A stretch of 41,289 bases of DNA. Source: Escherichia phage vB_EcoM_ECOO78. The stretch lies in sequence record KY705409, one strand, 5' to 3'. The position numbers and the translations under genes are program-made. The notes under the pieces were generated by a model that was not told the origin of the DNA, did not search any database, and worked only from the letters and a program-made list of their open reading frames with translations. Shown one piece after another: positions 1-18,043 of this stretch; within the stretch, counting starts at the first letter, position 1; each line of letters begins with the position of its first letter.

Positions 1-13
1 GGACCAATGCCCC
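1..13. repeat. Terminal direct repeat GGACCAATGCCCC (left copy); cos / terminal-redundancy candidate
   Basis: First 13 nt identical to last 13 nt of window (41277-41289). Confidence 0.6.
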
Positions 14-101
14 CGCAGGCTGTACCCCCTCCGGAAGTACCTTCGATTTTTGAAAAATCGAGATTGTCAAGCATTTTTTTTCGCAATTTGTGAAAATATT
101 T

Positions 102-332
102 TCATTGTTGTGATGTCGCTCTCACTGCGTCGTAAGCCCTTTCACACGTCAGCCCTGCGGCTCTTGCCCTGTCAGCCTCTGCTGCATAGATGCCCGCTGC
201 TGTGTCAATTTCTCTGAACAACTCGGCAAGCAGGCTGCTGGTGCTGGCCCTTGTCTTGCTGCTGATGGCTGGTGATGGCGTCTGCGATACCGTCTTGCAG
301 GCGCTTAGACTCAGCAGCAGCAATGGCAGCAT
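102..332 (-). CDS. Rz1-like o-spanin (outer-membrane lipoprotein), overlapping Rz in another frame
   Basis: Internal start within Rz frame-shifted ORF; N-terminus MLPLLLLSLSAC = signal peptide with lipobox; extends past Rz stop (overlapped architecture). Confidence 0.55.
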   Translation of the reverse strand: MLPLLLLSLSACKTVSQTPSPAISSKTRASTSSLLAELFREIDTAAGIYAAEADRARAAGLTCERAYDAVRATSQQ

Positions 333-591
333 TACGCTGCGCTGTAGCAATGTCTTGCTGTGCTTGTTCCTGAATTGCATCAATAGCCCCCTGCCGCTCT
401 TGTTCAATGCGGCGCTGTTTGTCTGCGAATTGGATTGCGGCCTGTGCGTCTGCCAGGTCACGTGCCTGCCACTTGGCTGACCATTCCTTATGCTCAGTGG
501 TGCGGCCCTTCTGGTAGCTCCAGAAACACGCCAGGAAGATTGCAGCCGATATGGCCACAACCTTCACTATCATCATTTGGGTACTGTTCAT
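205..591 (-). CDS. Rz-like i-spanin
   Basis: Start MNSTQMMIVKVVAISAAIFLACFW (N-terminal TM) followed by Q/A/E-rich coiled-coil; located after endolysin. Confidence 0.6.
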   Translation of the reverse strand: MNSTQMMIVKVVAISAAIFLACFWSYQKGRTTEHKEWSAKWQARDLADAQAAIQFADKQRRIEQERQGAIDAIQEQAQQDIATAQRNAAIAAAESKRLQDGIADAITSHQQQDKGQHQQPACRVVQRN

Positions 592-749
592 GGTTGCACC
601 TTGTCGCGCTCTGCCAGCAACCGATCTGCCCGGATAAGCGCCCAGCACTTCCGCGCCAGCAATGACCGGCGCAGGAAACGCATTTGTGGGAACGCATACC
701 AGTCAGCAAGTGCCCTGACGGCGTGCCAGTTATCCAGTGGCTTAATCAT
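588..749 (-). CDS. Small hypothetical protein (53 aa) between endolysin and Rz
   Basis: ORF MIKPLDNWHAVRAL... overlapping endolysin stop; no recognisable domain. Confidence 0.2.
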   Translation of the reverse strand: MIKPLDNWHAVRALADWYAFPQMRFLRRSLLARKCWALIRADRLLAERDKVQP

Positions 750-1234
750 GCTGCCACCGTTCCACCGGCGTTTCGATACGCTGCCAGCAGGTTGGCAATC
801 TTCTGTTCGTGCTGCCCATAACCAGCACCAGGCAGGGAAGCCCAAATGTTTCGAACCTGGCGCACGGCCTGTTCAAACTGACCGGCCTGAATAAGCGGCA
901 AGGCGCGTCGTTCACGGATTTGCTGAATTGCAATCAAATCCTGTGACAGCGGGCTGAAATCTTTCAGGCCTAATTGCTTTTTGTAGGCGTCATAATAGCG
1001 GCTCAAAAGCTGATAACGGCCAGCAGCCGTGGATTTGATGCCCAACTTAGGCAGTGCAACCAGCTTGCGCGGATGGTCTGCAAAACCGGTGAACAGGCCG
1101 CCACCAACCAGCACGTCATAACCATTGTGATTGGTTCGCTGTCTGCCGTTGTCGGTGCCTTCGCTGTAGGCGATCATATCCAGGAAAGCGCAAACGTTTT
1201 TGCCACCTGCCTGTTGTGGAGTAATAACAGCCAT
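746..1234 (-). CDS. Endolysin, phage lambda R-like lytic transglycosylase
   Basis: Translation contains FLDMIAYSEGTDNGRQ...GYDVLVGGGLF...KSTAAGRYQLL...NIWASLPGAGYGQ, closely matching lambda R from memory. Confidence 0.9.
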   Translation of the reverse strand: MAVITPQQAGGKNVCAFLDMIAYSEGTDNGRQRTNHNGYDVLVGGGLFTGFADHPRKLVALPKLGIKSTAAGRYQLLSRYYDAYKKQLGLKDFSPLSQDLIAIQQIRERRALPLIQAGQFEQAVRQVRNIWASLPGAGYGQHEQKIANLLAAYRNAGGTVAA

Positions 1235-1236
1235 TG

Positions 1237-1512
1237 TTAATACCTCTCATGTGCGGCTTTGAAATGCTTAAGCCATGATAAAAAAACGTGACGAGCGCCA
1301 ACCAGTGCAATGCTGACGTTCATGGTGACAAATGGCCGTTGTGAGTAATGGCCAGTGATGGTGTGAATGATGATTGCCAGTGCTGATATTGCCACCAGCG
1401 AAAAGAACAGTTTTCCAACAACGCCGTCTTTTACTCCGCTGTACACCACGCACCATGATGCCCAGATGAAGATGAAACAGACGGCGATAAAGTTAATGGC
1501 AAAAGTTGTCAT
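1237..1512 (-). CDS. Small membrane protein of lysis cassette (holin/antiholin-like)
   Basis: 91 aa, highly hydrophobic with 2-3 predicted TM segments; stop overlaps endolysin start. Confidence 0.5.
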   Translation of the reverse strand: MTTFAINFIAVCFIFIWASWCVVYSGVKDGVVGKLFFSLVAISALAIIIHTITGHYSQRPFVTMNVSIALVGARHVFLSWLKHFKAAHERY

Positions 1513-1832
1513 GCGTTACCACCGAATTTGCTTTTGATAGCCTCAATTAAGGTCGCAATGTCGGCGTTCTGAATCTTCCTGATAACAGCCACCACCATCG
1601 AACCGCCAAATGATCCCAGCAGGAAACCAATAGCCGAAGTGTATTGCTGCGGGATGCTGTAAAACCATGACGTCCAGCCAGTAAGAAAGTAAGAACATGC
1701 AAGCCCGCTACAAACAAACCACAGACGGCCTTTGATGCTCTTATCATCGTGAAAAGGAACAGCAATCAACGCACCCATTAAACCAGCGATTGCCCATCCA
1801 ATGTTATCCAGAAACTTCTCAAAAATATTCAT
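1509..1832 (-). CDS. Holin-like membrane protein
   Basis: 107 aa, multiple TM segments (GWAIAGLMGALIAV, FLLGSFGGSMVVAVI), charged C-terminus; first gene of lysis cassette. Confidence 0.6.
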   Translation of the reverse strand: MNIFEKFLDNIGWAIAGLMGALIAVPFHDDKSIKGRLWFVCSGLACSYFLTGWTSWFYSIPQQYTSAIGFLLGSFGGSMVVAVIRKIQNADIATLIEAIKSKFGGNA

Positions 1833-1837
1833 GCCAG

Positions 1838-2272
1838 TTATTGCCCCGTAGTCATTAGTAGTCGGTGCTGATGGTTGTCATTTGCAGGTGATGTGTCTTT
1901 GTGGGGTTTGTCAGTGCAGTGCCGCTTCACTGTGCGTTCTGAAACTTCCAGCAGTTCCGCAATGGCTTTTGCGTCCATTCCTTCGCCGTGCATCCGCTTG
2001 ATGCTGCGGTGAATGAAATGGCGGTAAATGTATTCACAATTAGCCGGGTGAAGCATTTCACCACCGAAGTGCTGCACCATCTTGCTGGCGTCACTCCATC
2101 CAAGAATTTTCACCAGGTGGTCATTAGGACGGATCCGCTTTGGCACATACAAAATGACTTTGTGGTACTGCTGCGATGGCACCCACAGCTTTGGTAGTTG
2201 TCCGATAAGATATAGCGCACGTTCACGGCCAATAACGTCAGCTATTTCCTGCACAGTGCGCGGTAATTCCAT
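1838..2272 (-). CDS. Mor-family (Mu Mor/C-like) transcriptional activator, candidate late-gene activator
   Basis: 144 aa; C-terminal HTH (AKAIAELLEVSERTVKRH) and overall Mor-like pattern; sits directly upstream of lysis/late genes. Confidence 0.45.
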   Translation of the reverse strand: MELPRTVQEIADVIGRERALYLIGQLPKLWVPSQQYHKVILYVPKRIRPNDHLVKILGWSDASKMVQHFGGEMLHPANCEYIYRHFIHRSIKRMHGEGMDAKAIAELLEVSERTVKRHCTDKPHKDTSPANDNHQHRLLMTTGQ

Positions 2273-2329
2273 GTAACCCCCAATAATTATAAATAAAAGT
2301 CAATATGGGGATTGTAGCCGAAAAGATGA

Positions 2330-2660
2330 ACGGTGACCAGAAAAGGGTGACAAGGTGGCAAAGAGTTGGTCACCCGCTTGTCACCCGTCAATCATCTTGA
2401 TTTATAAAGAGAAAGTGCGCGTTTTTGGCGTTCGGGTGACTAAGGTGACAACAATTTCCTATATTAATGTATTTCTACCCTCTGTGCGCACTATTGATAG
2501 GCTATTCCTATCGTCTGTATTTACCCCTATCTAAACTTTATAAATCCTTGTCACCCTTAGTCACCTTTAGTCATTTATATAGTCATATCAGTGGTTTAAG
2601 TGGTGACTAACTAGGTGACCAACTAGGTGACAAGGTGACCAACTTTTGTCACCCAATAAA
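2330..2660. repeat. Iteron-like array: about 12 copies of GGTGAC(A/C)A in both orientations flanking an AT-rich core (candidate origin or regulator-binding array)
   Basis: Read directly: acggtgaccag, agggtgacaagg, ttggtcaccc, ttgtcacccg, gggtgactaaggtgacaa, ttgtcaccctt, tagtcaccttt, ggtgactaactaggtgaccaactaggtgacaaggtgaccaa, ttgtcaccc. Confidence 0.6.
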
Positions 2661-2678
2661 AAACCGCCCGAAGGCGGT
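2656..2678 (-). terminator. Intrinsic terminator (UUCG-loop hairpin plus U-tract on minus strand)
   Basis: Plus-strand taaaaaaccgcccgaaggcggt; minus strand gives accgcc-UUCG-ggcggu followed by UUUUUUA, downstream of the 2685-3017 gene. Confidence 0.6.
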
Positions 2679-2684
2679 TAGTGT

Positions 2685-3017
2685 TCAAGCGCGGTTTGGT
2701 CCGGTTGGGATGTCGGTAAATCCTCTGCGCTTCCACAGGTGCCAAAGTCGCCATGCTATGCGTGCGCGTGGCATTGTTTTGAAGGTTCCCAGTTTGTGTT
2801 TCTGCTTGCCATCAATGCACGTCACCTGCCAACCACAAGCCAGCCGCTGACAGCCAGGGATGCGTGCCAGGTGCAGGTTGCGGTTGCTGATTGCCGTGAC
2901 CTCCGGTTTTGGTTTAGCCTCCACTGGTGCTGGTTTTGGCTTCTGCTTCTGTTTCGCCTGCTTAACAAAAGCGCGCCACAGAATATCTGTTGCCAGGCTC
3001 ATGGCTTGCCGCTTCAC
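2685..3017 (-). CDS. Hypothetical protein with Lys/Pro-rich linker
   Basis: 110 aa ORF; ATGA overlap with upstream DUF551 gene; no domain recognised. Confidence 0.45.
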   Translation of the reverse strand: MKRQAMSLATDILWRAFVKQAKQKQKPKPAPVEAKPKPEVTAISNRNLHLARIPGCQRLACGWQVTCIDGKQKHKLGTFKTMPRARIAWRLWHLWKRRGFTDIPTGPNRA

Positions 3018-3841
3018 TCGCTGGTGGGATTAGGCGTGTCGAACCACATAACAACGTCGCCTGTATATTGGTGCTTTGTATGGTGGTAACTGGCAATCAG
3101 CCAGGTATCTTTATGATTGATGCGCCCAACTCGCTGGGAACCATCAGAAAGCATCACAGGAACGTCACGGAAGCGATCTGGAAGCCTTTCGCTGCAATTC
3201 ACCCACTGGTCATGATGTTTGTTCGCATTGATGCCAGCCAACGATTCGAACTGCTGCGCGGTGTTGTCTGTTTCATCACTGATGGCAGACGAACGCAGAC
3301 ACTGGACAGCCAGGCGATACGCCTTAAGGCTGATTTCCTGATGCGTGCTCAATGCGCCTTTGCGTTCACCGATTTCCAGGCTTTTGATGCGCGTTTCAAG
3401 GTTTTCCAGCAGCCTATCATCAGTTACCACCGGCGCTGGCTTTTCACGCACATCCGCCAGCAGGATTCTGAAAGCTGCCAGCATGGCACGTTCCGGCACA
3501 TAGTCATCAGCATAGAACGCATCAAGCGCACGCATCATGGCGTTTAGTGATGGGTCAGCATCGCTTACCACCGGCACTGGCTGCACGTCCCCAACCAGGC
3601 GGGTTATTTCGCTTTCCAGGCGCTGGCCAAGCTCTGTTTTAGTGCAGTGCTCGGCCCATTCGTTGTTTTCCAGCAGGGCCACCACGTTGCGCACGTCATC
3701 ATCAACGCCGCCCATTGAATCGGCCAGCATCCGCAAACACGCCAGTTCAAATTCGCCGCGCAGTGACAGTTCACCGTGGCTGTTGACCATTTCCAGTTCC
3801 GCTATGCGCTCGCGCACGTTGTCAATCGTTACTTGTTTCAT
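3014..3841 (-). CDS. Ea22-like protein with C-terminal DUF551 domain
   Basis: C-terminal WVNCSERLPDRFRDVPVMLSDGS...WLIASYHH resembles DUF551; acidic coiled-coil N-terminal region. Confidence 0.55.
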   Translation of the reverse strand: MKQVTIDNVRERIAELEMVNSHGELSLRGEFELACLRMLADSMGGVDDDVRNVVALLENNEWAEHCTKTELGQRLESEITRLVGDVQPVPVVSDADPSLNAMMRALDAFYADDYVPERAMLAAFRILLADVREKPAPVVTDDRLLENLETRIKSLEIGERKGALSTHQEISLKAYRLAVQCLRSSAISDETDNTAQQFESLAGINANKHHDQWVNCSERLPDRFRDVPVMLSDGSQRVGRINHKDTWLIASYHHTKHQYTGDVVMWFDTPNPTSE

Positions 3842-3888: not shown

Positions 3889-4866
3889 TTATGCTACAAC
3901 AGAATTGCTACTTGCCTGGTTATCGTTTGCGGCTGCTGCTTCCATTATGCGCCCCTGCGCTGTCTGGAAATAGGTTTCATCAAGTTCAATTCCTATGAAG
4001 TTACGGCCTTCATTGATGCAGGCGACTCCTGTTGACCCGCTCCCCATAGTGAAATCTAGAACCGTTTCGCCAGGGTTTGAATATGTCCTGATGATGTCAG
4101 CCAGCAGTGCTACCGGCTTCTGTGTTTGGTGAAGGCCGGTATAATCCTTTTTGTACTGAAGAACGTTAGATTTGTATTTTGCACCATCCGCCAGGTTAAA
4201 CCTGCGGGCAAACCTGCGGTCAATTTCTAACATTTCAGCATAAGTCATAAGCCAGTCACACACACTAAGCCCATAGTGCGCAATAATCTGGTTGTATGTC
4301 TTTTCAGTACACAGCCCGAACTGCGTTGATTCAACATAAAAAAAGTGTTCCGCGCGCCTGTGACCTAAATCAGTGTTTATCTGCTTTATATTTCTGCCAA
4401 TGTATTCCATGATTTTTTTGGCATAATCCCTTAGCGGATGCTGTGCCAGCGTGTCATATTTCTTGAAGAACACCACTAAATCTTCAAAGTATGAAACAGG
4501 CGCTTTATTTACCAACAGCGAGTTAGAGAAATGGTCTTTCAGCCACATTAGTCGATAACTGAAAGGCAGATTTCCATGCGCCGCTGTGATTAACTTGCTG
4601 GTGTAAGGTTCCTGGCTGAACAGAATAAGAGCGCCGTTAGTTCGCAAAACGCGGTTGCATTCTTCAAAAATGGCCTGCGGAGAAATAGCGTTATCCCATT
4701 CAGCGTTCGCAATTCGTGAATAGCGTTCTTCACCCTTTCCCATTCCGCCAGCGGTGCCATACGGCGGATCACACAGAACCAAATCAACGCTACCGGCTGG
4801 AATAGACTTCATAACTTCCAGGCAATCACCTAAATGCAATTCGTATTTATTCACAATGCTACCCAT
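3889..4866 (-). CDS. DNA methyltransferase (N6-adenine/N4-cytosine type, beta-class motif order)
   Basis: DPPY catalytic motif near N-terminus (LVLCDPPYG) and SAM-binding FTMGSGSTGVAC near C-terminus; AT-richer than surroundings. Confidence 0.85.
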   Translation of the reverse strand: MGSIVNKYELHLGDCLEVMKSIPAGSVDLVLCDPPYGTAGGMGKGEERYSRIANAEWDNAISPQAIFEECNRVLRTNGALILFSQEPYTSKLITAAHGNLPFSYRLMWLKDHFSNSLLVNKAPVSYFEDLVVFFKKYDTLAQHPLRDYAKKIMEYIGRNIKQINTDLGHRRAEHFFYVESTQFGLCTEKTYNQIIAHYGLSVCDWLMTYAEMLEIDRRFARRFNLADGAKYKSNVLQYKKDYTGLHQTQKPVALLADIIRTYSNPGETVLDFTMGSGSTGVACINEGRNFIGIELDETYFQTAQGRIMEAAAANDNQASSNSVVA

Positions 4867-4918
4867 TACTTTGTTTGGTTTGTTTGGTTTGTCTCGTTTT
4901 CGATAGATGAATTCTATA

Positions 4919-4959
4919 TTTACTTATGTAAATGATATAATCGTTTATACCTATCAATA
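4919..4959 (-). promoter_or_regulatory. Conserved bipartite upstream element TATTGATAGGT-N15-ATTTACATAAGTAAA (copy 1, upstream of methyltransferase)
   Basis: Minus-strand sequence read directly; near-identical element at 10001-10042. Confidence 0.5.
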
Positions 4960-4990
4960 AAAACAAAACCCGCCGAAGCGGGTTATTATT
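4958..4990. terminator. Bidirectional intrinsic terminator (UUCG/CGAA-loop hairpin)
   Basis: aaaaacaaaacccgccgaagcgggttattatt: 5-bp GC stem, 4-nt loop, A/T-rich tracts on both sides; immediately after primase-helicase stop. Confidence 0.6.
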
Positions 4991-7299
4991 CAAAACGGTG
5001 AATTGTCATCTGGTCGCCGGTAATCCGGCTGCAACACCTTCGGCGGCAGGTTGAAGAACCGCCCGTTTTTCGTCTTGCGCGGTTCCTGCCCGGTCAGCTT
5101 GCGCAGCACGTTACTGCAATGCGTGGCCTGTGACTTGTTCGGCTTATCAAATCCGATTTCCTGCAACACCTGGCTGGCGGTATGTTCGCGGTAGGCGCTG
5201 ATGCGTTCGCTGCCCCACTCAAAGCGCGCCAGTATCATTTCCTCTACCGGGTCAATGGATTCGTGTTCCTTGTTGACGCCTTCCAGCATGGCTTCTTCAT
5301 CACGATCCAGCCACCAGCGTTCGCCGTCACGGTACAGTTGCGCCACTTCTGCCCATAACTGTTGCGTGTCGATGTCGTGGGCGTAGTTCACGCCGGTCAC
5401 CGGAATGGTCCACCAGCGAACGTTCCCGGTGTCATCGGCCAGGAAGTGTTTGGGGTTCACTGACGCAAAAAACACCGTTCGGCGCTGGTACTTCGATTCA
5501 AGCCGGTCATAAGGGCGGCGCAGCATGTCCACGTCAGAACTGATGAAGGATTTCAGCCTGGCAATGTCAGCCTTGCGGAACGTTGCATCTAGTTCGCCCA
5601 GCTCAACCATCCAGTGGCCAATCGCGGTGGTCACGCTGTCTTTGTTGCTAGGGTCGATGGTCGCGCCATCTTTCACCAGGTCGCGCATGGTAGGCGGCAG
5701 CAGTGCTTTGAACCAGGACGTTTTCCCCAATGACTGGTCACCCTGTAACACCAGCACGCCTTTGGACCAGAACCCTGTTGGCTTCATGACGGCAGCCACG
5801 GCAGAAATCAGCCAGCGGCGCACCATCATCAGCACCAGGCCACGGTCAAAGCCTTGCGGCGTGGTCAGGGTGTCAACCAGGTCATAAATGCGGCTGACGC
5901 CATCCCAGGGCCGTGACGTGATGAATTCAGCAGCCGGGTTGTAACGATTGGCCACGCCAATCAGCTTGATGTAATCGCCCACGTCACCTTTTGGCATACC
6001 GTTGCGGGCACACAGGCTGGAAACTTCCGCCAGTGAACAGTTGGCCGCAGCGTCAACGCCGTAGTCACGCCCTGGAATGGTCACCACCACATCTTTGCTG
6101 ATTTCGTTATAACGCGCCGTGATGCCGTACTGGTCCAGCAGCCATTCCAGGTTTTCCCAGGTGCTTAATGGCTTTTGCTGGTGGCTCATGTGCGGGTACA
6201 TGAACGGGTTGACCGTGGCATCCAGCGGCAGAAAGTTGTCATTTGCCGGTTCAGGTATCGCGTCGTTAATCTGGCGCTTAACTTCTGCCAGCCCTTGCAT
6301 ATTGTGCAGGTCGTTAAAGTCGGTCGGCTTGTCGCTCAGTGCTGCGAACTTCGGAACCACCAGCAGGCCACCGCATGTGGTTGCGGCCTGGCGCGCGTAG
6401 TGAACGCCATCGTTCTGCTTGCCATCTTCGTGCCACTGGTCGTTATCGGCTGCCACAACAATTGTTGCGCGTCCGAACTGCTGGCGCATCAGCTTGGCCA
6501 CGGTCGGCACGTTACCGGCATCGAACGCCACTACAACGCAGTAGCCTGTTGCCTGGTGGATTGACGCGCCGGTTGAATAGCCTTCACAGATGACAATGAC
6601 CGGGTTTGCGCCAATCGGCTTGCCGCCGATGACGTGGAAGCATCCACGCTTCTGGCCGCCAGGCAAATAATCACGGTCACGCCCTAGCTGTGGGTTTTCG
6701 TTCGGGAAGATGGCCTGCAAACTGGTGATCTGCCCGTCAATGTTACGCACAGGAACCAGCAGCGCGCCATCAATGCTGCGCTTTTCTGTCCAGAACCGCC
6801 CAACACGCAGGCCAAACGCCTGCACCTTCTTGCGCTGCAAATAGGGGTGTTCATCGCCGTCCAGTTCGGTGGCTGATTCCCATATGTTGCGCGCCTGTTC
6901 GGCTGCCTGCGCCATACGTTCGGCACGGCGCTGCTGCTCTGCCTTTTCTTCGGCTTCGCGCTTGCGCTTGCGTGCTTCGATTTCTTCCGCTGACAGCGGG
7001 GTGCGTTCTGCGTCGTTCAGGGAAAAGCCGAACTGCTGCGCCTCACCAATCAGGGTGCCAATGCCAATGCCGCCGTGACGCTTCACTGATTTCCAGGTGT
7101 CGCGTGCGTCTTTGCTGTTGTACTTGTCAGACTGGCGTGACCAGTCATTCCAGACGGTGAAACCGCCGTCGCCTAATTCCGATTTGACCGCCATCGCCAT
7201 GCGCACCCATGTTTCACGGTCGCAACCGGCGTCGATGTAGGAAAGTGCTTCTGCAATTTCCTGTTCGGTCAAATCCTTATAGTTTTGTTGTGCACTCAT
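4990..7299 (-). CDS. Primase-helicase (P4 alpha-like: primase C-terminal-like region, TOPRIM, D5/SF3-type P-loop NTPase)
   Basis: TOPRIM-like VIVICEGYSTGASI...VAADND; Walker A LVLQGDQSLGKTSW; 769 aa. Confidence 0.8.
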   Translation of the reverse strand: MSAQQNYKDLTEQEIAEALSYIDAGCDRETWVRMAMAVKSELGDGGFTVWNDWSRQSDKYNSKDARDTWKSVKRHGGIGIGTLIGEAQQFGFSLNDAERTPLSAEEIEARKRKREAEEKAEQQRRAERMAQAAEQARNIWESATELDGDEHPYLQRKKVQAFGLRVGRFWTEKRSIDGALLVPVRNIDGQITSLQAIFPNENPQLGRDRDYLPGGQKRGCFHVIGGKPIGANPVIVICEGYSTGASIHQATGYCVVVAFDAGNVPTVAKLMRQQFGRATIVVAADNDQWHEDGKQNDGVHYARQAATTCGGLLVVPKFAALSDKPTDFNDLHNMQGLAEVKRQINDAIPEPANDNFLPLDATVNPFMYPHMSHQQKPLSTWENLEWLLDQYGITARYNEISKDVVVTIPGRDYGVDAAANCSLAEVSSLCARNGMPKGDVGDYIKLIGVANRYNPAAEFITSRPWDGVSRIYDLVDTLTTPQGFDRGLVLMMVRRWLISAVAAVMKPTGFWSKGVLVLQGDQSLGKTSWFKALLPPTMRDLVKDGATIDPSNKDSVTTAIGHWMVELGELDATFRKADIARLKSFISSDVDMLRRPYDRLESKYQRRTVFFASVNPKHFLADDTGNVRWWTIPVTGVNYAHDIDTQQLWAEVAQLYRDGERWWLDRDEEAMLEGVNKEHESIDPVEEMILARFEWGSERISAYREHTASQVLQEIGFDKPNKSQATHCSNVLRKLTGQEPRKTKNGRFFNLPPKVLQPDYRRPDDNSPF

Positions 7300-16936: not shown

Positions 16937-17175
16937 ACGATCACCTTTGCGCTCAGGTATCCGCAACGTAGTTTCAGCTTTACTGTTTTGCTTTGGTTCT
17001 TGTACGGGTAATCACCGCCAGCTTTTATTGAAGCATAACCACCGCTGGAAAATTCAGGCGAGCGGGTTAAAGCCTTCACATCCTTGTAAAAAAGTTCTCG
17101 CAGCTTGGCTTTTTCCATCACCTTTTCGGTGTGCATCCTGGTACGTAGTGTGTTGAATTCGTTATTTGTCATCAT
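16933..17175 (-). CDS. Hypothetical protein
   Basis: 80 aa ORF overlapping ParB-like gene end. Confidence 0.4.
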   Translation of the reverse strand: MMTNNEFNTLRTRMHTEKVMEKAKLRELFYKDVKALTRSPEFSSGGYASIKAGGDYPYKNQSKTVKLKLRCGYLSAKVIV

Positions 17176-18043
17176 TCACCCCACCAACGTAGTCAGCCAC
17201 CAGCGCCATGAATTCACGCACCACGCCAGCAGGTGCGCGCAGGGTCATGGATTCGTCAGGCTCGGCATCTTCCAGCCGGTCATCGCTGTGGACCAGTTCG
17301 ATTTGCACAGCCAGGTCAGCCAGGCGCGTCAGCTTGTCTTTGCCGAACGGTGGCTGGATGGCTTCCGTCTTGGACTTAGGCGCTTTCGGTGCCTTCGGTT
17401 CGGTGAATTTCTTTGTTACTTTATCCTTGCCAGCGGCTTTGGCTTCTTCCAGCGCCTGTGCGGCCACGGCTTCGGCTTCGGTGCCGTGCTGGCGGGTTAG
17501 TTCAGTGGCGGTCACGTAGGACATCTGGCCACCGCGTACCATGTCTTTGATTGGTTCCGGGCACTCAGCCAGGGCCAGCATGTTGGCCACGTCTGACGGG
17601 CTGCGCTTCACCTTCTTGGCTATCTCGTCATTGGTCCAGCCCTGCGCTTTCAGGCGCGCATAGGCTTTGGCGCGTTCCAGCGGTTCCAGCGGCTTGCCCT
17701 GGCTGCTGGTGACCATCAGCGCGATTTTGTCAGCCTCACTGGTGCCGGTGATGTCGTTCACTTCCAGGCGCAGTTCCAGGCCGGTTTCTGCGGCCATCTT
17801 GGCACCAGCAAAGCGGTGGTGGCCGTCAATCACCTTGATGCCCTGCTGCGTCACTTCCACGGTCAGCGGCGGCACATATTCACCGGCCAGGTACGCATCG
17901 CGGAATTCTTCAACGTGCGCCTGGTCCACGTCGCGAATGTTGTAGCCATCTTCCACATACAGTTCAGCCAGCGGCACCCAAAACACCTTGCGCGGCGTTG
18001 CTGCGGTTTGTTTTGATTTATAAAGTTGCCCGATAGTAGCCAT
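17162..18043 (-). CDS. ParB-like nuclease-domain protein (ParB/Srx fold N-terminal domain)
   Basis: Motif KVIDGHHRFAGAKMAA; Lys/Ala/Pro-rich central linker; no ParA partner in window. Confidence 0.65.
   Translation of the reverse strand: MATIGQLYKSKQTAATPRKVFWVPLAELYVEDGYNIRDVDQAHVEEFRDAYLAGEYVPPLTVEVTQQGIKVIDGHHRFAGAKMAAETGLELRLEVNDITGTSEADKIALMVTSSQGKPLEPLERAKAYARLKAQGWTNDEIAKKVKRSPSDVANMLALAECPEPIKDMVRGGQMSYVTATELTRQHGTEAEAVAAQALEEAKAAGKDKVTKKFTEPKAPKAPKSKTEAIQPPFGKDKLTRLADLAVQIELVHSDDRLEDAEPDESMTLRAPAGVVREFMALVADYVGGVNDDK

What the first reader, a model, noticed from the sequence alone, without database searches (positions are those of the whole stretch)
2330..2660. Iteron-like array of about 12 GGTGAC(A/C)A octamers around an AT-rich core
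Roughly twelve copies of GGTGAC(A/C)A in both orientations cluster in 330 bp, flanking a ~100-bp AT-rich segment (2450-2560), between the early-left operon terminator and the Mor-like gene. The octamer resembles the TGTTCACC-type iterons of the P4 ori/crr elements (recalled from memory), and this genome encodes a P4-alpha-like primase-helicase 2.3 kb away. Candidate origin of replication; alternatively a binding array for the Mor-like activator or the ParB-like protein.
Basis: partly seen in the sequence, partly recalled or inferred. Interest (0 to 1): 0.65.

Follow-up and report, generated by a model that had tools for sequence, protein, structure and literature searches.

The report
Iteron-flanked replication origin of a Jilinvirus
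The repeat cluster is real and is most likely the phage's replication origin: short sites for the phage's own primase-helicase flank an easily melted AT-rich stretch, as in the origins of staphylococcal pathogenicity islands and phage P4.

Summary
Window 2332-2653 holds 13 exact GGTGAC(C/A/T)A sites and 3 degenerate ones. This is the densest 6-mer cluster in the 41-kb genome (P about 3e-16). The sites sit in three modules around a 96-bp core of 33% GC.

The window is a Jilinvirus myophage, 99.6% identical to Salmonella phage PT1 over the 561-bp query around the array. The same layout lies upstream of the Mor-like gene in the relatives examined that show a detectable repeat: terminator, outer module, two sites, AT-rich core, two inverted sites, outer module, promoter.

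The repeat word differs between relatives: GGTGAC, GGGAC, GGTAAC, GTGTA and others. It tracks only the 15-residue wing of a predicted C-terminal winged helix in the 769-aa primase-helicase (AUC 0.96). The helicase core (0.495) and the Mor-like, HTH and DUF7696 proteins (0.48-0.50) do not track it. The ParB-like protein and small terminase are 96% and 98% identical between two phages with different words. A blind prediction of the phiRSP repeat from its wing sequence was correct.

The helicase is VapE-like and matches SaPI Rep1 (PDB 7PDS). It shares only the Toprim domain with P4 alpha.

Verdict: a replication origin of the SaPI/PICI Rep-ori kind, not previously described for this phage group in the literature I could search. 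It is a new member of a known kind. Origin function itself is inferred, not shown.

The parts
2332..2385 (.). Promoter-proximal iteron module. Sites: GGTGACCA 2332-2339 (+), GGTGACAA 2346-2353 (+), degenerate GGTGGCAA 2354-2361 (+), GGTGACCA 2367-2374 (-), GGTGACAA 2378-2385 (-).
   Evidence: An equivalent outer module is present in most relatives.
2435..2451 (+). Inner left iteron pair, GGTGACTA and GGTGACAA, 9 bp start to start, pointing towards the core.
   Evidence: (inverted repeats I5 and I10). The pair-core-inverted-pair pattern recurs in most of the 31 loci mapped.
2452..2547 (.). AT-rich core, 96 bp, 33% GC. Proposed DNA-unwinding element. On the minus strand (primase sense) it carries features shared by relatives of every iteron class: an AAGGATTTATAAAG..ATAGGGG tract next to one pair and ATATAGGAAAT next to the other.
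   Evidence: (second least stable 100-bp duplex). No DnaA box, IHF site or GATC. No Rfam family.
2548..2587 (-). Inner right iterons. GGTGACAA 2548-2555 and GGTGACTA 2558-2565, inverted relative to the left pair. Then two degenerate copies, ATGACTAA 2568-2575 and ATGACTAT 2580-2587.
2602..2653 (.). Terminator-proximal iteron module. Sites: GGTGACTA 2602, GGTGACCA 2614, GGTGACAA 2626 and GGTGACCA 2634 (all +; spacing 12, 12, 8), and GGTGACAA 2646-2653 (-).
   Evidence: (direct-repeat family D1).
2662..2679 (-). Intrinsic terminator of the leftward early operon. It bounds the array.
   Evidence: Conserved in relatives.
2311..2339 (-). Promoter-like site for the Mor-like gene: -10 TACAAT at 2316-2311 and -35 TGGTCA at 2339-2334. 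The -35 lies inside the first iteron.
   Evidence: TACAATCC is present upstream of the Mor-like gene in 15 of 32 relatives, and TACAATC in 17. Function not tested.
4990..7299 (-). Primase-helicase, 769 aa: PriCT_2 (16-86), Toprim_3 (235-336), VapE-like helicase (462-680), C-terminal winged helix. Proposed initiator.
   Evidence: (PDB 7PDS, E 2e-18).
5038..5250 (-). Codons for residues 684-754, the predicted winged helix. The recognition helix is residues 722-736. The wing hairpin is residues 741-751 (nt 5047-5079), and the 15-residue segment 737-751 used for the covariation test is nt 5047-5091. Wing-tip residue 744 is the only column that separates GTGAC phages from GGGAC phages.
   Evidence: (pLDDT 79-94).

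Best explanation
The region 2332-2653 is the phage's origin of replication.

Proposed mechanism: the C-terminal winged helix of the phage's own 769-aa primase-helicase binds the GGTGAC(N)A iterons. The two inner pairs (2435-2451 and 2548-2565) point towards each other across a 96-bp AT-rich core. They would position two helicase rings, one on each side. The core melts, the VapE-like helicase loads itself without a separate loader, and its Toprim primase domain lays down the first primers. The outer modules (2332-2385 and 2602-2653) would raise the local concentration of initiator or act as auxiliary cis elements.

Within the iteron, the conserved recognition helix probably reads the conserved GAC(N)A part. 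The variable wing probably reads the variable 5' bases (GGT in this phage, TGG in ECO1230-10).

Shown here: the array and its layout, its conservation across genera, the covariation of repeat word and wing, the predicted winged-helix fold, and the homology of the helicase to SaPI Rep.

Inferred: actual binding, melting at the core, loading of two hexamers, and origin activity.
For: 1. The array is highly non-random and is the densest 6-mer cluster in the genome.
2. The same layout lies upstream of the Mor-like gene in Escherichia, Salmonella, Enterobacter, Klebsiella, Serratia, Pseudomonas, Burkholderia, Ralstonia and Achromobacter phages and in IMG/VR contigs: terminator, outer module, two sites, AT-rich core of about 70-110 bp, two inverted sites, outer module, promoter.
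3. The repeat word differs between relatives while the layout stays. GGTGAC: window, Arya, KA2-1, Mica. GGGAC: ECO1230-10, PPpW-3, phiRSP and others. GGTAAC: MQ-4. GTGTA: Mano-like.
4. Among 24 phages of the two main classes, identity in the 15-residue wing predicts a shared word with AUC 0.96; the helicase core gives 0.495. The word changes 7 times on the core tree and once on the wing tree.
5. Residue 744 at the wing tip is the only perfectly discriminating column in the last 230 residues. The Mor-like, HTH-repressor and DUF7696 proteins have none and give AUC 0.48-0.50.
6. A prediction written down beforehand, that the phiRSP wing RKSGS implies GGGAC repeats, was confirmed.
8. The helicase domain matches SaPI Rep1 (7PDS, E 2e-18). 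The origin of that protein is described as 6-12 short iterons in two sets around an AT-rich centre, with at least two on each side pointing in opposite directions (PMC9371898). Gram-negative PICIs are described the same way (PMC6092414).
9. The core is the second least stable 100-bp duplex in the genome.
10. The region has no DnaA box, IHF site or GATC, which fits an initiator that does not depend on the host one.
Against: There is no experimental evidence of binding or origin firing for any member of this group. GC skew follows the direction of transcription and says nothing about an origin.

The array is not immediately downstream of the initiator gene as in SaPIs. It is 2.3 kb away, at the end of the operon.

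The covariation shows which protein most probably reads the repeats. It does not show that the site is an origin rather than, for example, a regulatory or cis-helper element like P4 crr.

FoX3, a more distant relative, shows no clear array at the equivalent place.

The phage also encodes a DnaB-like helicase, a DEAD-box helicase, SSB and a RecE-like exonuclease. Another origin, or recombination-driven replication, cannot be excluded.
Confidence: 0.78

Rival explanations
1. The array is mainly a transcriptional control region for the Mor-like late activator gene. The repeats would be operators for a phage regulator, or for the primase-helicase acting as a regulator. Occupancy would set the timing of late gene expression.
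For: The array lies directly upstream of the Mor-like gene. A promoter-like site has its -35 (TGGTCA, 2339-2334) inside the first iteron. A TACAATCC element is widely conserved next to the promoter-proximal module.
Against: None of the dedicated DNA-binding proteins tested tracks the repeat word. The Mor-like, HTH-repressor and DUF7696 proteins give AUC 0.48-0.50 with no discriminating column. The AP2-like 110-aa neighbour is highly diverged in Arya and KA2-1, which keep GGTGAC. The CI-like repressor is absent from ECO1230-10, which keeps an array (PMC11990801). In ECO1230-10 the site over the -35 is not a GGGAC iteron. An AT-rich core flanked by inverted site pairs is not needed for an operator. 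As a second function on top of origin activity, this rival is not excluded.
Confidence: 0.12
2. The array is an auxiliary cis element bound by the initiator, like P4 crr, and DNA synthesis actually starts elsewhere in the genome.
For: P4 crr is an iteron cluster placed right after the alpha gene terminator, and it is required in cis although the annotated origin lies 4.5 kb away. The covariation shows binding specificity, not where synthesis initiates.
Against: There is no second cluster of the iteron anywhere in the window. The central module has every feature of a melting site. Minimal versions in phiRSP and PPpW-3 consist only of pair, core and inverted pair.
Confidence: 0.06
3. The array is a partition site (parS) for the ParB-like protein, or a packaging recognition site for the small terminase.
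For: Repeated short sites occur in centromere-like and pac/cos regions. The phage encodes a ParB-like protein (17162-18043, minus strand) with a ParB HTH domain.
Against: ParB-like is 96% and TerS 98% identical between the window and ECO1230-10, although their repeat words differ. ParB-like is only 56% identical to Arya, which has the same word. The sequence records of the window, Arya and HeidiAbel start or end between the spanin and small-terminase genes, not at the array.
Confidence: 0.03

Closest known systems
SaPI / PICI Rep-ori replicons (Staphylococcus aureus pathogenicity islands and Gram-negative PICIs)
   Same: The initiator is a self-loading helicase of the VapE-like family with a C-terminal winged helix, fused or adjacent to a primase. 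The window protein matches Rep1 (PDB 7PDS) at E 2e-18. The origin is made of short penta- to octanucleotide iterons in two sets around an AT-rich centre, with at least two sites per side in opposite orientation (PMC9371898; PMC6092414). Each element has its own iteron word, matched to its own Rep.
   Different: This is a complete 41-kb myophage, not a satellite. The origin is 2.3 kb downstream of the initiator gene, at the end of the early operon, not immediately after it. There are two extra outer iteron modules. The primase part carries a PriCT_2 domain. Sequence identity is low and confined to the helicase domain.
Phage P4 alpha protein with ori and crr
   Same: One polypeptide carries a Toprim primase, a helicase and a C-terminal winged helix that recognises octamer iterons. 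The Toprim domains are homologous (31% identity over 245 aa, E 2e-19). The P4 type-1 repeat GGTGAACA shares 6 of 8 bases with GGTGACAA. P4 crr lies right after the alpha terminator.
   Different: P4 alpha has Zn_Ribbon_Prim, D5_N, DUF5906 (SF3 helicase) and Pox_D5 domains. The window protein has PriCT_2 and VapE-like domains instead. P4 needs two separate elements, ori and crr; the window has one cluster. In P4 crr the GGTG ends of the sites face the spacer, whereas here they face away from the core.
Origins of SV40 and papillomavirus (large T antigen, E1)
   Same: As an analogy only: initiator-helicases bind inverted short sites beside an AT-rich stretch and assemble as two hexamers (PMC9371898 discussion; PMC9894130 is listed).
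   Different: The origin-binding domains are unrelated and the systems are eukaryotic viruses. No homology is claimed or tested.
Iteron plasmids and phage lambda (Rep or O protein with DnaA/DnaB/DnaC)
   Same: Repeated initiator sites lie next to an AT-rich unwinding element.
   Different: Those iterons are about 17-22 bp, mostly direct repeats on one side of the AT-rich element. The initiator is not a helicase and must recruit host DnaB. The region here has no DnaA box or IHF site.

Membership tests
SaPI/PICI-type Rep-ori replicon | The initiator contains a VapE-like (Rep-type) helicase domain. | tested here: met
   Pfam PF05272 at E 5e-51. phmmer hit to SaPI Rep1 7PDS at E 2e-18.
SaPI/PICI-type Rep-ori replicon | A C-terminal winged-helix domain carries the origin specificity. 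| tested here: met
SaPI/PICI-type Rep-ori replicon | [quoted passage not shown] | tested here: met
   definition from PMC9371898.
SaPI/PICI-type Rep-ori replicon | The origin lies immediately downstream of the rep gene. | tested here: not met
   The array is 2.3 kb from the stop codon, with three ORFs and a terminator in between. In relatives the distance from the initiator stop codon to the start of the Mor-like gene, just beyond the array, ranges from 0.27 to 7.8 kb.
SaPI/PICI-type Rep-ori replicon | Rep binds and melts its own origin and supports replication of an ori plasmid. | not testable with these tools
   This needs EMSA, KMnO4 footprinting and plasmid replication assays.
Phage P4 alpha / ori-crr system | The alpha-type domain set: Zn ribbon, Toprim, D5_N/SF3 helicase, Pox_D5 winged helix. 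| tested here: not met
   Only Toprim_3 is shared.
Phage P4 alpha / ori-crr system | The type-1 iteron TGTTCACC. | tested here: not met
   The window iteron is TTGTCACC / TGGTCACC / TAGTCACC, 6 of 8 bases shared.
Phage P4 alpha / ori-crr system | Two separated cis elements, ori and crr. | tested here: not met
   There is a single cluster. Other matches in the window are scattered single copies.
ParB-parS partition site | The site specificity follows the ParB-like protein. | tested here: not met
   ParB-like is 96% identical between phages with different repeat words and 56% identical between phages with the same word.
Mor/C activator binding site | The site specificity follows the Mor-like protein. 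| tested here: not met
   AUC 0.504 and no discriminating column in 24 sequences. The window and ECO1230-10 proteins are 95% identical although their words differ.

The most novel reading that the evidence does not exclude
The origin may also act as a replication-coupled switch for late genes. Initiator bound to the promoter-proximal module, whose first iteron covers the -35 of the Mor-like gene promoter, would hold late-activator transcription until replication forks clear the site.

Separately, a single wing-tip position of the winged helix (residue 744: K/A for GTGAC, G for GGGAC) together with its neighbours may act as a simple, repeatedly exchanged recognition code. That would let related phages keep incompatible origins.
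Probability: 0.2. Interest if true: 0.6.

Novelty: new member of a known kind. Interest (0 to 1): 0.45.

Why it matters
It gives a concrete, testable origin and initiator for a poorly studied group of small myophages (Jilinvirus/Iiscvirinae and related genera). One member, HeidiAbel (Bas97), is in the BASEL reference collection. No origin for this group turned up in the literature I could search.

The comparative data also provide a natural specificity series. The same protein scaffold and origin layout carry at least four different iteron words, with about seven independent switches between two of them. All of these map to a 15-residue wing. That makes wing-swap experiments straightforward and could help define how self-loading helicases read their origins. 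It also shows that the Rep-ori design of phage satellites is used by complete phages.

Tried and rejected
- GC skew over the whole window follows gene orientation only and gives no origin signal.
- Rfam on 1800-3100 gave only a chance-level miRNA match.
- A sequence profile of the C-terminal domain against PDB gave no significant hit; the best was MBP1 at E 0.62.
- Foldseek against PDB gave nothing below E 0.1.
- The genome-contig scan with the close-relative alignment returned only distant N-terminal matches that were of no use here.
- The full-text search for TGTTCACC returned only unrelated primer sequences. I read the P4 record directly instead.
- The AT-rich stretch at 4864-4963, directly after the primase-helicase gene where a SaPI-style origin would sit, is the least stable duplex in the genome. 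It has no iterons and looks like the terminator and promoter boundary of an inserted methyltransferase gene.
- The genome-wide excess of GGTGAC (48 copies outside the array) is matched in ECO1230-10 (54 copies), which uses GGGAC iterons. It is therefore a composition or codon effect, not dispersed iterons.
- The Mor-like, ParB-like, small terminase, HTH repressor, DUF7696, AP2-like 110-aa and CI-like proteins were each considered as the binder and rejected on covariation or presence/absence.
- FoX3 shows no clear array at the equivalent place.

Full report
**What is in the sequence.** The 412-bp gap between the Mor-like gene (1838-2272, minus strand) and the last early-operon ORF (2685-3017, minus strand) is non-coding. 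It ends at a minus-strand intrinsic terminator at 2679-2662. Inside it, GGTGAC occurs 13 times between 2332 and 2653. Three degenerate copies bring the total to 16 sites. From the density elsewhere in the genome, 0.38 copies are expected in this span (P about 3e-16). A scan of every 6-mer in 350-bp windows ranks this as the densest cluster in the 41-kb window.

The sites form three modules:
- A promoter-proximal module at 2332-2385, with two or three forward and two reverse sites.
- A central module: GGTGACTAAGGTGACAA (2435-2451), a 96-bp core of 33% GC (2452-2547), and the inverted TTGTCACCCTTAGTCACC (2548-2565) followed by two decayed copies.
- A terminator-proximal module at 2602-2653, with four forward sites and one reverse site.

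The 100-bp stretch starting at 2491 is the second least stable duplex in the genome. The region has no DnaA box, IHF consensus or GATC, and no Rfam family matches it.

**What the genome is.** A 561-bp query spanning the array (2200-2760) is 99.6% identical to Salmonella phage PT1. Close relatives include Escherichia phages Alux-21, HeidiAbel (Bas97), ep3 and ECO1230-10, all in genus Jilinvirus, subfamily Iiscvirinae. The group is described as little characterised, with an unclear lifestyle (PMC11990801). I found no description of a replication origin for it. The gene order is: CI-like repressor, then a leftward early operon (DEAD-box helicase, resolvase, small HTH protein, DUF7696 protein, 769-aa 'DNA primase', accessory genes), then the terminator, the array, the Mor-like late activator, the lysis genes and the terminase.

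**The layout is conserved and the repeat word is not.** The same architecture sits upstream of the Mor-like gene in Arya, KA2-1 and ep3 (GGTGAC), Mica (GGTGAC) and Persinger (GTGAC). It is also there in ECO1230-10 and ET-SD-TH ((T)GGGAC), PPpW-3 (GGGAC), MQ-4 (GGTAAC) and Mano (a GTGTA/GGGTGCAC-like word). Maps of 31 loci show the recurring pattern: two sites, an AT-rich core of about 70-110 bp, two inverted sites, usually with outer modules. The minimal form, in phiRSP and PPpW-3, is just this central module. The core carries strand-specific features shared across iteron classes. In the primase sense these are an AAGnnAATAAAAGAAATAGG-like tract beside one pair and a TTTAGGAAT-like tract beside the other. 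Phages of one host, E. coli, use different words, so a host protein is an unlikely reader.

**Which protein reads the repeats.** Between the window (GGTGAC) and ECO1230-10 (GGGAC), most candidates are nearly identical: Mor-like 95%, HTH 'repressor' 93%, DUF7696 97%, ParB-like 96%, small terminase 98%, DEAD-box helicase 98%. Arya keeps the window's word, yet its Mor-like, HTH and ParB-like proteins are only 56-59% identical to the window's.

The 769-aa primase-helicase behaves the opposite way in residues 721-760. Arya is 95% identical there, KA2-1 92% and ECO1230-10 60%, although all three are 81-89% identical overall.

I then collected 80 IMG/VR loci with relatives of this protein. For the 58 that also carry a downstream Mor-like gene, I compared the C-terminal sequence with the commonest k-mer upstream of that gene:
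- Wings of the form RK(S/T)GS.R(L/V)F go with GGGAC.
- Wings of the form (K/R)(K/R)TK(N/A)GRF(F/Y) go with GGTGAC.
- KRSNGR wings go with GTGTA-type words.
- Other wings have other words.

For the 24 sequences of the two main classes, identity in the 15-residue wing predicts a shared word with AUC 0.96. The helicase core gives 0.495. The word changes 7 times on the core tree, twice on the winged-helix tree and once on the wing tree. The closest different-word pairs are 94-96% identical in the core but 40% in the wing.

In the last 230 residues, the only column that separates the classes perfectly is residue 744 (K/A against G). The Mor-like, HTH and DUF7696 proteins have no such column and give AUC 0.48-0.50. 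Before reading the phiRSP intergenic region, I recorded the prediction that its RKSGS wing implies GGGAC repeats. The region reads GGGACCAAGGGACAA, core, TTGTCCCTGTCCCGTGGTCCC.

The recognition helix is conserved across iteron classes, as is the GAC(N)A part of the iteron. The wing varies, as do the 5' bases (GGT against TGG). The inference is that the helix reads the constant half-site and the wing reads the variable one.

**Comparison with known systems.** SaPI Reps are described as self-loading helicases. Their C-terminal winged helix recognises penta- or hexanucleotide iterons, 6-12 per origin, split around an AT-rich centre with at least two per side pointing in opposite directions (PMC9371898). 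Gram-negative PICI origins likewise have two iteron sets flanking an AT-rich region (PMC6092414). The window meets these criteria except position: the origin is 2.3 kb from the initiator gene, not adjacent to it.

The P4 record annotates type-1 repeats that read GGTGAACA/TGTTCACC in ori and crr. However, P4 alpha shares only the Toprim domain with the window protein (31% over 245 aa). It has Zn-ribbon, D5_N, DUF5906 and Pox_D5 domains in place of PriCT_2 and VapE-like. P4 uses two separate cis elements, whereas the window has one cluster. The site orientation relative to the spacer is also reversed. So this works like P4 and SaPI origins, and by its helicase it belongs with the SaPI/PICI Rep type rather than the P4 alpha type.

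**Rivals.**
- *A pure transcriptional operator for the Mor-like promoter.* This is weakened by the lack of covariation with any regulator, and by the AT-rich core with its inverted pairs. The -35 of a promoter-like site (TGGTCA-17-TACAAT, 2339-2311) does overlap the first iteron, and a TACAATCC element is conserved in relatives, so a second, regulatory role remains open. In ECO1230-10 the site at that position is not a GGGAC iteron, which argues against a conserved coupling.
- *A crr-like helper without initiation.* This cannot be excluded by sequence, but there is no other cluster.
- *parS or pac functions.* These are contradicted.

**Limits.** Everything about binding, melting and initiation is inferred. 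GC skew is uninformative. A more distant relative, FoX3, lacks a clear array. The phage carries further replication and recombination genes.

**Verdict.** The feature is a new member of a known kind of origin, with a useful natural series of specificity swaps. Interest is moderate.

Noticed in passing
window 4993-5013 (minus strand); alignment A3: The primase-helicase ends in an acidic tail with a terminal aromatic residue (PDDNSPF). Across relatives the tail is DDDxRPF, DDDLKPY or similar, with a nearly invariant final P-F. From my own knowledge it resembles the C-terminal tip of E. coli SSB (DDDIPF), which docks many replication proteins, so it may recruit host factors.
   Followed up: partly
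window 2290-2316 (minus strand); relatives: A conserved element TACAATCCC(N5-6)TTGAC(A/T) lies 40-50 nt upstream of the Mor-like start codon in phages of many genera. TACAATCC is present in 15 of 32 upstream regions. It is probably the promoter and leader of the late-activator gene.
   Followed up: partly
window 2452-2547 and the cores of relatives: Read in the primase sense, the AT-rich cores share an A-rich tract (AAGnnAATAAAAGAAATAGG) next to one iteron pair and a TTTAGGAAT-like tract next to the other. ATAGG(G/A) recurs about four times in the window core. These features do not depend on the iteron class. They might mark primer start or helicase loading sites.
   Followed up: partly
L026 6998-9691 and 11330-11640 (Serratia phage MQ-4): The MQ-4 replication protein (897 aa) keeps PriCT_2 and Toprim but has an unrelated C-terminal part of about 550 aa with no Pfam match. 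Its array in the same position uses GGTAAC/GTTACC. The helicase and DNA-binding part and the origin seem to have been replaced together.
   Followed up: partly
window 4864-4990: This is the least stable duplex in the genome. It lies between the terminator after the primase-helicase gene and a DNA methyltransferase gene (3889-4866). It has no iterons and looks like the boundary of an inserted accessory gene. The genes between the primase-helicase and the array differ in every relative.
   Followed up: partly
L004 6420-6790 (phage ep3): ep3 has an extra insert of about 370 bp between its array and the early-operon terminator. The insert carries its own terminator-like hairpin and an unannotated minus-strand reading frame, followed by TTGTCAT repeats.
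   Followed up: no
window 1-3030 against relatives: There is a mosaic junction at the array. The window's holins and Mor-like gene are 95-100% identical at the protein level to ECO1230-10 but only 54-59% (holins) to ep3 and HeidiAbel. From about 2640 onwards the window is 98% identical in DNA to ep3. The origin region therefore marks a recombination breakpoint.
   Followed up: partly
window 2685-3017 (minus strand): The 110-aa protein encoded next to the array has a C-terminal motif (WQ..(6-8 aa)..LG.F....RA.IA..L..LW..RGF.DIPTG) that looks like an AP2-type DNA-binding domain to me. Pfam found nothing. It does not track the iteron word.
   Followed up: partly
whole window and L027 (ECO1230-10): GGTGAC is about 2.5 times over-represented across the genome outside the array: 48 copies against about 18 expected genome-wide. 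ECO1230-10 shows the same excess (54 copies) although it uses GGGAC iterons. This is a composition or codon effect, not dispersed iterons.
   Followed up: yes
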